From: Octopus vulgaris
Taxonomy: Eukaryota
NCBI GenBank assembly: GCA_951406725.2
Contig: OX597824.1
Location: forward strand, 10,788,001-10,852,000
Length of the DNA: 64,000 bases
Reading direction: 5' to 3'
In this document: one piece after another, positions 6,985-57,981 of the stretch
Numbering within the stretch: position 1 is the stretch's first letter
How the letters are laid out: each line of letters opens with the position of its first letter
Translations under genes and position numbers: made by a program
Notes under the pieces: generated by a model
Told to the model about the DNA's origin: nothing
The model's database searches: none
Seen by the model: only the letters and a program-made list of their open reading frames with translations

Positions 6985-7330
6985 TATTCTGTTGTGTCTG
7001 GGGAGAGTCATTTTCTTTTTGTGCCTTATAATTTAACACACTCACTGGTAAAATTTCCACTTATTTCTTATTTTTATTTTCCTAAAATTTTCGTTGCATC
7101 TTGCAACCTTTTCAATAGAGAGTCAAGACTATTGAAGTCAAGACTATTGAAAAGGTTGCAAGACGCAACGAAAATTTTAGGAAAATAAAAATAAGAAAAA
7201 GTGGAAATTTTACTGGTGAGTGTGTTACATTACAAGGCACAAAAAGAAAATTACTCTCCCCAGACACAACAGAATATGCTTCAACACACGAACTCATATA
7301 AAGAATCTTGCAAACCAAATCCCAAAACGA
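6985..7330. mobile_element. Penelope-like pseudo-LTR fragment in inverted (fold-back) arrangement
   Basis: Arms ~6985-7118 and ~7144-7278 are reverse complements; another family copy at ~27617-27806. Confidence 0.65.
7144..7180 (+). ncRNA. Candidate type I minimal hammerhead ribozyme, U3:A8 core variant
   Basis: CTA-TTGAAAA-G-GTTGC(AAGAC)GCAAC-GAA-AATT-T-TAG; mirror copy on minus strand at 7082-7118. Confidence 0.6.
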
Positions 7331-12153: not shown

Positions 12154-13603
12154 AGAGTACAAACTATCTTTCTTATGATAAAACTGTAATCCCAATTACA
12201 CGGTTATTTAGAGTACAACTACCTTTCTTATGATAAAACTGTAATCCCAATTACACGGTTATTTAGAGTACAACTACCTTTCTTATGATGGAACTGTAAT
12301 CCCAATTACACGGTTATTTAGAGTACAACTACCTTTCTTATGATGGAACTGTAATCCCAACTACACGGTTTTTAGAGTACAGCTACCTTTCTTATGATGG
12401 AACTGTAATCCCAATTACACGGTTATTTAGAGTACAACTACCTTTCTTATGATGGAACTGTAATCCCAATTACACGGTTATTTAGAGTACAACTACCTTT
12501 CTTATGATAAAACTGTAATCCCAATTACACGGTTATTTAGAGTACAACTACCTTTCCTATGATAAAACTGTAATCCCAACTACACGGTTATTTAGAGTAC
12601 AACTACCTTTCTTATGATGGAACTGTAATCCCAATTACACGGTTATTTAGAGTACAACTACCTTTCCTATGATAAAACTGTAATCCCAACTACACGGTTA
12701 TTTAGAGTACAACTACCTTTCTTATGATGGAACTGTAATCCCAATTACACGGTTATTTAGAGTACAACTACCTTTCCTATGATAAAACTGTAATCCCAAT
12801 TACACGGTTATTTAGAGTACAACTACCTTTCCTATGATAAAACTGTAATCCCAACTACACGGTTATTTAGAGTGCAACTACCTTTCTTATGATGGAACTG
12901 TAATCCCAATTACACGGTTATTTAGAGTACAACTACCTTTCCTATGATAAAACTGTAATCCCAATTACACGGTTATTGAGAGTACAACTACCTTTCTTAT
13001 GATGGAACTGTAATCCCAACTACACGGTTTTTAGAGTACAACTACCTTTCTTATGATAAAACTGTAATCCCAATTACACGGTTATTGAGAGTACAACTAC
13101 CTTTCTTATGATAAAACTGTAATCCCAACTACACGGTTATTTAGAGTACAACTACCTTTCTTATGATAAAACTGTAATCCCAATTACACGGTTATTTAGA
13201 GTACAACTACCTTTCTTATGATGGAACTGTAATCCCAATTACACGGTTATTGAGAGTACAACTACCTTTCTTATGATGGAACTGTAATCCCAACTACACG
13301 GTTTTTAGAGTACAACTACCTTTCTTATGATAAAACTGTAATCCCAATTACACGGTTATTGGGGGTACAACTACCTTTCTTATGATGGAACTGTAATCCC
13401 AATTACACGGTTATTTAGAGTACAACTACCTTTCTTATGATAAAACTGTAATCCCAATTACACGGTTATTTAGAGTACAACTACCTTTCTTATGATGGAA
13501 CTGTAATCCCAATTATACGGTTATTTAGAGTACAACTACCTTTCTTATGATGGAACTGTAATCCCAACTACACGGTTTTTAGAGTACAGCTACCTTTCTT
13601 ATG
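12154..13603. repeat. 55-bp minisatellite, ~26 copies
   Basis: Unit AACTACCTTTCTTATGATAAAACTGTAATCCCAATTACACGGTTATTTAGAGTAC with AA/GG, T/C and short-deletion variants. Confidence 0.97.
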
Positions 13604-16144: not shown

Positions 16145-17281
16145 CTACATTCTATACCAAGTCTTTCTCCGCCACCACCGCCACGTTATTTTAAACTTTG
16201 CTTGCAATTTGTGTCGAGCCGATTACCTCGCAGTATTTCTTTCCCGCTTCTTTGCCTTCAAAGTCCAATCCCGCCCTTGGCTTGTTTAGGTGACACTCTT
16301 CATCTGCTGCTTGGTTTAGCACCGTAAATAAAATAAACGTAAAATAATATTCGGCAGTACTCGACTAAATACGGCAATAAAACGGATCTGAGAGACTGTT
16401 CCTTTTTTGATAATGAAAGTTGAGTTGATTGCAAAAAGTTGAATCACACATGGTTTTTGTGTTAAGAGTACAAACTATCTTTCTTATGATAAAACTGTAA
16501 TCCCAATTACACGGTTATTTAGAGTACAACTACCTTTCTTATGATAAAACTGTAATCCCAATTACACGGTTATTTAGAGTACAACTACCTTTCTTATGAT
16601 GGAACTGTAATCCCAACTACACGGTTTTTAGAGTACAGCTACCTTTCTTATGATGGAACTGTAATCCCAATTACACGGTTATTTAGAGTACAACTACCTT
16701 TCTTATGCATATGTATACTGAGTTCGAATAAGCGGTTTATAAGTATCGCTATGCTTAACCGAATGCACGTACACACATATCGTTAAGCATAATAAGGGAA
16801 AGAAATGGGAAGGGAGACTACGTGCTTGTGTGGGAGTCGATTTAATTAACAAAATCAGTTACCTTCCTTTGTCTTTTCCTCTCCATTATTCTACAATGCA
16901 GTGCACCCACTGACATTGATCCATGACGTCATTTACTCTGTCAATGTCTCTCCTTGGCTTAATTTTTTAATTGTTTATAAACTCTGCGGTTCTCAGTTTG
17001 TCATTTAAATTATTGTGAGTTCATTATTTCATATTCACAAATTTGAAAAATATTTTCAGTTGAGAATTTCCTCTCTGAAACTTAAGAGTAAGTTAACGAA
17101 AAAAAAAAATAAATAAACAGGCGTAGGAGTGGCTGTGTGGTAAGTAGCTTGCTAACCAACCACATGGTTCCGGGTTCAGTCCTACTGCGTGGCATCTTGG
17201 GCAAGTGTCTTCTGCTATAGCCCCGGGCCGACCAATGCCTTGTGAGTGGATTTGGTAGACGGAAACTGAAAGAAGCCTGTC

Positions 17282-24613: not shown

Positions 24614-24959
24614 AATTGCAGCGTGGAAGGTGTTTGTAAGCCATTTAAGAAACACACAAAAGCCGTTCGATTCGCTTCAATATTTAAGTTTAATTTGTCA
24701 AAATATTTTCGTCGCTTTAAGACCGTGACCTGTTCACTGACAAAAATCCGTGCTGCATCTCGGATTTTTGTCAGTGAACAGGTCGCGGTCTTAAAGCGAC
24801 GAAAATATTTTGACAAATGAAACTTAAATATTGAAGCGAATCGAACGGCTTTTGTGTGTTTCTTAAATGGCTTACAAACAACTTCCACGCTGCAATTGTT
24901 TTCGTTTCAGCACACGATCTCAGATCAAATCACTTGCTATGCAAGTACATCTCCGTAAT
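24614..24959. mobile_element. Penelope-like pseudo-LTR with inverted 5' copy (137-bp arms)
   Basis: Arms 24614-24750 and 24761-24897 with a 10-nt loop; family copy at ~57740-57981. Confidence 0.7.
24767..24817 (+). ncRNA. Candidate type I minimal hammerhead ribozyme, G3:C8 core variant
   Basis: TTTGTCA-GTGAACA-G-GTCGC(GGTCTTAAA)GCGAC-GAA-AATATT-T-TGACAAA; mirror at 24694-24744 on minus strand. Confidence 0.65.
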
Positions 24960-26018: not shown

Positions 26019-26216
26019 TCTTTCTTTACACCCACACACACACATGCGCGCGCGCGTGTGTGTGTGTGTGTGTGTGTGCAACATTTGGTATAATTATAAA
26101 CAGGACAAATTTTAGCCATTTCTCCGGAGACTGAAAAATAAATGATGAACAACCTTAATCGATTTTCGAACCTGGGTTCTCATCAGAGGATCCTACACAT
26201 ATATACATATATATTT

Positions 26217-27569: not shown

Positions 27570-27616
27570 AATGTGTATAGTTAAATATGTGTGTGTATAT
27601 ATATATATATAAATAT

Positions 27617-27806
27617 ATTTCGTTTCGTGATTTGGTTTGCAAGACTCTTTACTCGAGTCGTGTGTTGAAGCATATTTTCTTGTGTTCTGGGGAGGGTCAT
27701 TCTCTTTTTGTATCTAATTATTTAACACACTCACCGGTTCAGTTTCCACTCATTTCTTTATTTTTTTCTAAAACTTTCGTTGCGTCTTGCAACCTTTTCA
27801 ATAGTC
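27617..27806 (-). mobile_element. Penelope-like pseudo-LTR fragment with U3:A8 hammerhead copy
   Basis: Same family as 6985-7330; hammerhead fold at 27768-27804. Confidence 0.6.
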
Positions 27807-28249
27807 GTCGACTCTGTCCGTTATTTACACTGCGTTCCTTTTTGTTGTTTGTGCGTATGCGTGTACGCACGTACACGTATGTATGTGTGTGTGTGTGTGT
27901 GTGTGCATCTATGTGTGTGTATATGCATATATATATGTATGCATGTGTGTACGTTTATATGTATGTATTCTGCATATTCATGTTTGTGTGGTCGTGTTTG
28001 TTTTTATGCCTGTGTGTGTGTGTGTGTGTGTGTACCTTTGGCTTCTTGTGTGTGGGTTTTTATGACTACGTACGTGCGTCTGTTATGTATGGATGTGTGT
28101 CTTCATATGTGCCTTTGTGTGAAATGTGCGTGTGTGTTTGGCCATGTGTTTCAGTGTCTTCATATGTGTTTGTATGTGCGCTTGTCTATTCCTATTACCA
28201 ATGTACCTATCTATCTGTAAGTCTGTTTACATTCATATCCATTTACCTC

Positions 28250-57400: not shown

Positions 57401-57739
57401 AGCAAAGTTACTGAAGTATTGATGACAATTCAAAACCAACAAGACCTGGGAGAGGAAGGGGTTAATGCAGTGCAGTGAAACCCAAAAGAAAGTTGCAAAG
57501 CTAACTCCCCTTCTGACCACCAGGATGACTCAGAGTCAAGAACAGTGGCTTATGCTCCATATGGACCGTATCAAACCTGGAACTTTGTGATTGCAAAATG
57601 AACTTCTTTAGCATTGAGTAATGCTGTATGAATCTCTCTAGAATCTAAATAAAAAAATGTGACAAATATAGAAATACAGTGGAATGTTTTGTTTTTTATT
57701 TGCAACTATTGTTGATGGAAGATTTTTATTAAAACAATT

Positions 57740-57981
57740 GTTTATAAGCCATTTAAGAAACACAAAAACTGTTAGATTCACTTCAACATTTAAATTTCAT
57801 TTGTCAAAATATTTTCGCTGCTTTGAGACCACGTGTTCATTGACAAAATTTCATTGAAGTGAATCTAACGGTTTTTGTGCGTTTCTTAAATGGCTTATAA
57901 ACACCTTCCACGCTACAATTGTTTTTGTTCCAGCACACGATATCAGATCAGGTTACTTGCTATGCAAGTACATCTCTGTAA
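57740..57981. mobile_element. Second copy of the 24614-24959 fold-back family
   Basis: Same sequence with a different inversion point; decayed hammerhead fold on minus strand ~57800-57847. Confidence 0.75.

What the first reader, a model, noticed from the sequence alone, without database searches (positions are those of the whole stretch)
24694..24817. G3:C8 swapped-core hammerhead on both strands
A perfect 7-bp stem I (TTTGTCA/TGACAAA) and 5-bp stem II (GTCGC/GCGAC) frame the core GUGAACA and GAAA, with palindromic AATATT stem III. The only departure from consensus is the reciprocal C3G/G8C swap. The mirror copy has one stem II mismatch and the ~57800 copy is decayed.
Basis: partly seen in the sequence, partly recalled or inferred. 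Interest (0 to 1): 0.8.

Follow-up and report, generated by a model that had tools for sequence, protein, structure and literature searches.

The report
Swapped-core hammerhead in a Penelope retrotransposon
The motif is a minimal hammerhead-ribozyme fold in the terminal repeat of a Penelope-like retrotransposon with thousands of copies, and its core base pair is naturally reversed (G3:C8) where two related families in the same genome keep C3:G8 or U3:A8; it likely cuts RNA only weakly, which is untested.

Summary
The motif sits in the pseudo-LTR of a C-terminal GIY-YIG Penelope-like element (PLE): 5,534 exact copies of a core 22-mer, linked to an RT-endonuclease ORF on the same strand, about 90 nt before the start codon. 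G3:C8 is the family's fixed state. Two related PLE families in this genome carry the same fold with C3:G8 and U3:A8, plus compensatory changes in stems I and II, so the swap is natural covariation, not chance (0 descriptor hits in 40 shuffled windows). Corrections: there is also an extra G between A9 and stem II and a U17 cut site, both usual in PLE minimal hammerheads. The mirror copy is the ordinary inverted PLE insertion product; read through, this locus folds into one long hairpin that abolishes the ribozyme. Copies come mostly from uncleaved RNA (5' ends cluster about 58 nt upstream of the cut site). Cleavage is untested; published C3G/G8C double mutants are partly active. I found no report of a natural G3:C8 hammerhead, but could not read Lunse 2017. 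Verdict: new variant of a known kind, interest 0.5.

The parts
24761..24959 (+). Tail-bearing sense copy of the PLE pseudo-LTR 3' part (starts at element position +11, ends in ORF codon ~31)
24614..24760 (-). Inverted, tail-less copy; begins at the common 5' end (+1) and stops at the first 3' end point
   Evidence: 3' ends of 41 of 53 inverted copies at +144 to +150
24767..24817 (+). Minimal type I hammerhead fold, G3:C8 core; stem I 24767-73/24811-17; extra G 24781; stem II 24782-86/24796-800; palindromic AATATT 24804-09; predicted cut between 24810 and 24811
24694..24744 (-). Mirror hammerhead in the inverted arm, with an A-C mismatch in stem II (position 24726)
24867..24959 (+). First ~31 codons of the PLE ORF (MAYK...), continuous with the RT-endonuclease frame in L140
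24898..24959 (+). One-sided 'tail' of about 60 nt between the two 3' end points of insertions
57737..57981 (.). Older copy of the same family: inverted arm with decayed hammerhead plus short tail-bearing arm, 13-bp target-site duplication

Best explanation
This is the minimal type I hammerhead motif in the pseudo-LTR of a Penelope-like retrotransposon, with the 3-8 core pair reversed to G3:C8 in the whole family, and it likely acts as a slow, conditional self-cleaver that would need a second copy or the element's protein. Shown: element identity, motif position about 90 nt before the ORF start, fixation of G3:C8, covariation with related families, and that inserted copies mostly span the uncut site. 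Inferred: transcription likely starts at +1 (about 58 nt upstream of the cut site); reverse transcription likely starts at two internal sites near the ORF start, which would give ~145-nt and ~200-nt cDNAs and so the hairpin-plus-tail insertion seen here; two RNAs would pair through the AATATT palindrome to complete stem III and cut after U17; C8 would still supply the 2'-OH general acid while G3 holds it in place. This genomic copy is a dead insertion whose read-through RNA folds as one long hairpin.
For: Linkage: 20 of 20 loci taken from the endonuclease search show EN-UTR-spacer-motif on one strand with G3:C8; L140 is repeat-ORF-repeat; RT motifs and GIY-YIG. PLE hallmarks: variable 9-15 bp target duplications, (TA)n targets, one-sided tail, inverted copy in 53 of 90. 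Covariation: unaided MAFFT aligns three families in register; the 3-8 pair is GC:2, CG:2, UA:2; stem II is 100% paired with 2 of 5 pairs changed on both sides; covariation 0.467 against at most 0.107 for slid controls (6 sequences from only 3 families). Sister family: 58% protein identity over RT-EN, C3:G8 in all its listed intact-type copies. Lineage variants (12% or more of 122 arms) fall at 0 of 42 stem/core positions against 11 of 70 other non-coding positions (P=0.006; 6 of 61, P=0.08, without loop II). Older ORF-linked copies L203-L206 also have G3:C8. Sense RNA from +1 forms both stems (stem II P~1.0, stem I 0.46-0.99 by length). Literature: extra nucleotide before stem II, palindromic stem III, low dimer activity (PMC4209133); C3G/G8C partly rescues a PLE hammerhead that needs protein (PMC11167929).
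Against: No cleavage was measured. Only 2 of 90 tail-anchored copies start at the cut site and both have other causes (microhomology, internal deletion); junctions at +1 and +2 are as common as at the cut site in the first 100 of 314 listed (read by eye). C8-to-G is over-represented: 42 of the first 100 of 324 non-C8 copies (hand count) against C>G 7 of 1,622 elsewhere, so unpaired G3/G8 templates may have spread. The young intact sister carries C9 and U17 where older sister copies have A9 (and C17), which fits relaxed constraint. No copy of this family with two intact same-strand hammerheads around an ORF was seen in the loci examined. In the anole PLE, cleavage is not needed for insertion in vitro (PMC11167929).
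Confidence: 0.62

Rival explanations
1. Same origin, but the motif is catalytically dead or irrelevant. The fold is kept as a structural element of the 5' leader (protein binding, translation or promoter overlap), and the 3-8 swap was fixed during relaxed selection.
For: Templates were mostly uncleaved; G3/G8 excess; sister family drifted to C9/U17; PLE hammerhead mutants do not affect insertion in vitro; Naiads proliferate without canonical hammerheads.
Against: Two transversions ending on a Watson-Crick pair, three families with three different Watson-Crick pairs, and U4 G5 A6, G12 A13 A14 A15.1 invariant across families whose alignment over ~200 nt averages 54% column identity.
Confidence: 0.3
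2. The two opposed hammerheads at this locus form a working two-strand unit (for example a retrozyme-like or ambisense RNA).
For: Both arms keep a near-complete motif.
Against: Whole-locus RNA is a -239 kcal/mol hairpin with hammerhead stems at probability 0; inverted arms vary in length and are absent in 37 of 90 insertions; inverted copies are a described PLE insertion product.
Confidence: 0.04
3. A chance look-alike inside a palindromic miniature DNA transposon (MITE).
For: The 284-bp palindrome resembles a MITE; no Rfam hammerhead match.
Against: One-sided tail, variable-length target duplications, contiguity with an RT-GIY-YIG ORF, homologous canonical hammerheads in sister families, 0 hits in shuffles.
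Confidence: 0.02

Closest known systems
Minimal type I hammerheads of metazoan Penelope-like elements (Cervera and De la Pena 2014, PMC4209133)
   Same: In the pLTR; one nucleotide between 9 and 10.1; G10.1-C11.1; palindromic stem III with no stable helix; U17 common; thousands of solo and inverted copies; U3-A8 covariant described.
   Different: Core is GUGAACA. All 56 representatives in their Figure S3 begin with C or U at position 3, though their descriptor required that. The extra nucleotide is G, outside their consensus H.
Poseidon element of Anolis carolinensis (Frangieh 2024, PMC11167929)
   Same: Hammerhead near the ORF start; two internal RT start sites defining the tail; AT-rich targets; uncleaved RNA as template; engineered C3G/G8C partly active.
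   Different: There G3:C8 is a laboratory mutant; here it is the natural state. This element has the Cys-rich RT-EN linker that Poseidon lacks, a ~60-nt tail, and the motif lies wholly upstream of the ATG.
Neptune/Nematis clades of C-terminal EN+ PLEs (Craig 2021, PMC8557442)
   Same: RT then GIY-YIG, CX3CxxC linker, (TA)n targeting, inverted 5'-truncated copy, tail.
   Different: Clade not placed by a tree here; 'Nematis-like' is recalled from the linker sequence, not from a call.
Natural core variants of hammerheads (Perreault 2011, PMC3088659)
   Same: Covariation at 3-8 seen in nature.
   Different: Section 8 reports only U3-A8 for that pair.

Membership tests
Hammerhead ribozyme, minimal type I (PLE) | Stems I and II flank the core, ends meet in stem I | tested here: met
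Hammerhead ribozyme, minimal type I (PLE) | U4 G5 A6, A9, G12 A13 A14, A15.1-U16.1, H17, G10.1-C11.1 | tested here: met
Hammerhead ribozyme, minimal type I (PLE) | Watson-Crick pair between positions 3 and 8 | tested here: met
   G3:C8; covaries CG/UA/GC across three families
Hammerhead ribozyme, canonical consensus | Literal C3 and G8 (CUGANGA); Rfam model match | tested here: not met
   GUGAACA; no hammerhead family among 18 matches. Lowers 'canonical', not 'works like'.
Hammerhead ribozyme, minimal type I (PLE) | Palindromic stem III allowing dimers; location in the pLTR on the ORF strand | tested here: met
   AATATT
Hammerhead ribozyme, minimal type I (PLE) | Site-specific self-cleavage after N17 | not testable with these tools
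   Only assembled contigs were available; genomic junctions show no spike at the site
Penelope-like element, EN+ C-terminal | Single ORF with PLE-type RT (DKG-like motif, YVDD) and C-terminal GIY-YIG | tested here: met
   (Pfam found GIY-YIG only; RT motifs read from the sequence)
Penelope-like element, EN+ C-terminal | pLTR-ORF-pLTR, inverted truncated copy, one-sided tail, variable target duplication | tested here: met
Nematis versus Neptune clade | Placement in an RT/EN tree with reference elements | not tested
   Linker motif fits either clade
MITE (DNA transposon) | Symmetric terminal inverted repeats with fixed-length target duplication | tested here: not met
   One-sided tail and 9-15 bp duplications

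The most novel reading that the evidence does not exclude
First natural, active G3:C8 hammerhead. One PLE clade in one genome has sampled three of the four Watson-Crick pairs at 3-8, passing through unpaired intermediates (the G3/G8 excess may be its trace), because these elements select a weak ribozyme that spares the RT template. Searches built on CUGANGA would then have missed whole ribozyme families in retrotransposons scored as hammerhead-less.
Probability: 0.33. Interest if true: 0.7.

Novelty: new variant of a known kind. Interest (0 to 1): 0.5.

Why it matters
The C3G/G8C swap is the standard laboratory proof of the hammerhead's core pair. A retrotransposon family with thousands of copies that has fixed it gives evolutionary confirmation, and a ready natural series (C:G, U:A, G:C in closely related elements) for asking what PLE hammerheads are for, an open question. 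It also shows that CUGANGA descriptors and Rfam models miss real members. The host system (hammerheads in PLE repeats) is known, so the step is a variant, not a new mechanism.

Tried and rejected
Rfam: whole-window scan showed only microsatellite-driven miRNA matches in the 150 of 203 rows displayed; the local scan gave no hammerhead. MITE reading dropped. L114/L115 looked like tandem elements but are host duplications without an ORF. PLE endonuclease fragments beside L004 and L087 belong to other families. A C3:G8 subfamily within this family: none; 16 copies differ at both 3 and 8, none has C3, 6 are A3/T8 as two transitions would give. 5' ends at the cut site: 37 pattern matches, 30 inspected; 13 are 7-nt microhomology joints, 5 are deletions or point changes, 12 are clean joints, with no spike over neighbouring positions. 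Sequencing runs: no RNA holder on record; 21 rows, 9 studies, contigs only, so no statement on expression, strand or ends. Metagenome scan: 2 relatives, both too short to include the repeat. Cap-derived G at -1: 34 of 53 arms ending at +1 have G where the element has C/T, but 28 of the 53 abut an inverted arm that can supply it, so only a hint. The dimer fold did not model the double hammerhead and is not used. Earlier scan findings: none returned. Papers not held: Lunse 2017, Przybilski and Hammann 2007, Martick and Scott 2006, Nelson and Uhlenbeck 2008.

Full report
Observation. The mirror copy has one stem II mismatch (24726) and the copy near 57,800 is decayed. A loose minimal-hammerhead descriptor gave 0 hits in 40 shuffled windows on both strands. 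Rfam gave no hammerhead match among 18 local hits.

What the repeat is. A 22-mer spanning the core has 5,534 exact matches in the 2.8-Gb genome (control 0) and a tail 20-mer has 6,448. Copies carry a ~60-nt tail on one side only and variable target duplications of 9-15 bp. A pair of opposed arms 2.5 kb apart enclosed a GIY-YIG frame. Searching with that DNA gave 426 candidates, 40 scored; the 20 loci I extended all read endonuclease, UTR, ~850-bp spacer, motif on one strand, all with G3:C8. L140 is a repeat-ORF-repeat copy whose frame starts inside the repeat, at window ATG 24867. [quoted passage not shown] These are the features described for PLE insertions (PMC8557442, passages). The longest open frame among 150 scored hits for this family is 1,025 aa and is cut at its 5' end; I saw no intact full-length copy. 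The sister family's protein is 98.9% identical to one a source labels Octopus vulgaris, so the host is probably an Octopus.

Is the swap real? The RT search returned a young sister family with intact 1,310-aa frames, 58% identical over RT-EN. Upstream of its start codon lies the same fold with C3:G8; its young copies have C at position 9 and U17, while the older copies L032, L151 and L033 have A9 and C17. A third family, present in this window at 7147 (+), 7115 (-) and 27801 (-), has U3:A8, and its tail translates to the same N-terminal peptide as the sister; its ORF was not traced further. MAFFT aligned six motifs from the three families with the core in register. The 3-8 pair is GC, CG and UA twice each, stem II is fully paired with two pairs changed on both sides, and the covariation score is 0.467 against at most 0.107 when partners are slid. 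This rests on three independent families only, and stem I of the U3:A8 rows is misaligned there. Within the family, among 122 arms from 82 of 90 tail-anchored loci (8 re-duplicated loci dropped), lineage-level variants occur at 0 of 42 stem/core positions and 11 of 70 other non-coding positions (P=0.006); five of the 11 are loop II columns that are not independent, and without them P=0.08. The commonest stem I change (8 of 104) keeps a G-U pair. Inserted copies decay alike in core (3.4%), 3' flank (2.2%) and ORF (2.9%), as dead copies should. Four older ORF-linked copies (L203-L206) also have G3:C8; none of 16 doubly changed copies has C3. Contigs from a run under a second organism label also show the swapped core. 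Since C3:G8 is the PLE consensus (PMC4209133 Figure S3, 56 motifs), G3:C8 is most simply the derived state (inference; no tree was built).

How it likely works. In 90 tail-anchored insertions taken in order along one chromosome, 5' ends peak at +1 to +4 (20 copies; a further 11 at +16 are partly an alignment artefact), 74 span the cut site, 53 have an inverted copy, 3' ends are at +201 to +203 in 85, and 41 of the 53 inverted copies end at +144 to +150. This matches the two internal RT start sites that define the tail in the anole element, where uncleaved RNA is the main template and the hammerhead cuts only with protein (PMC11167929, first half of the text). I infer a start site at +1 and short cDNAs that produce the hairpin-plus-tail insertion in this window. 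The +1 site also follows a branch-point, pyrimidine tract and AG, so a splice acceptor, as in Drosophila Penelope, is not excluded. Sense RNA from +1 forms both stems; the full palindrome forms neither. Stem III cannot form in a monomer, so cutting would need a dimer through AATATT, as proposed for PLE motifs, whose activity is low even then (PMC4209133, parts 1-2 of 4 and supplement parts 1-2 of 3). G8C alone costs about 10^5-fold and C3G partly restores it (PMC8495972, passage); the double mutant partly rescues a PLE hammerhead. That position 8 acts through its 2'-OH is stated in PMC6155905 (passages).

Against. No cleavage data exist here. Genomic joints show no spike at the cut site. Of 324 copies with a base other than C8, the first 100 listed are 42 G, 41 T, 17 A (hand count), while C>G elsewhere is 7 of 1,622; G8 copies occur in several subfamilies, so a mutational hot spot and a spreading unpaired lineage both remain possible. 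The sister's drift to C9/U17 fits attenuation or relaxed constraint. I put homology to PLE hammerheads above 0.9 and residual cleavage near 0.6.

Novelty. Hammerheads in PLE repeats, the extra nucleotide, palindromic stem III and U3:A8 are published. Seven paper searches were run. Those aimed at G3:C8 returned only engineered mutants (PMC11167929; PMC8495972; PMC3884650, passages). Perreault 2011 (section 8 and passages) lists U3-A8 only. PMC6765202 (passages and part of section 11), PMC10085705 (passages) and bioRxiv 10.64898/2026.07.22.740005 (part 1 of 5) add none. Lunse 2017, which surveys PLE hammerhead variants, was not held, and its alignments may already contain such a case. Verdict: new variant of a known kind, interest 0.5.

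Noticed in passing
window 7075-7330 and 27601-27830 (-): Related PLE family with a U3:A8 minimal hammerhead; the 7.1-kb copy is again an inverted pair with a one-sided tail encoding the same N-terminal peptide as the sister family.
   Followed up: partly
window ~26150-26190 (-): Another minimal hammerhead candidate with a canonical C3:G8 core and a palindromic stem III; its element was not traced.
   Followed up: no
L189-L196: Young, probably active sister PLE: near-identical 1,310-aa frames with a long Asn/Ser-rich insert, full tandem repeats, hammerhead with C at position 9; older copies L032, L151, L033 have A9 and C17.
   Followed up: partly
L371-L400: Unexplained excess of C8-to-G among family copies (about 2% of copies, roughly five times the background C>G rate).
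   Followed up: partly
L076:1333-2122 (also L301, L302): A solo copy inserted head-to-head about 40 bp upstream of an intronless dCMP-deaminase-like ORF (name from my reading of the sequence), in a duplicated segment.
   Followed up: no
L008, L070, L386, L284, L114: Further minimal hammerhead families (C3:G8 and U3:A8) in flanking DNA, so this genome holds several PLE hammerhead types.
   Followed up: no
L293, L295, L332, L333, L336, L337, L339, L356: One insertion re-copied at least eight times inside another repeat.
   Followed up: no
window 12154-13603 and 16465-16707: 55-bp tandem array (26 copies) with a shorter duplicate; several SINE-like dispersed repeats elsewhere in the window.
   Followed up: no
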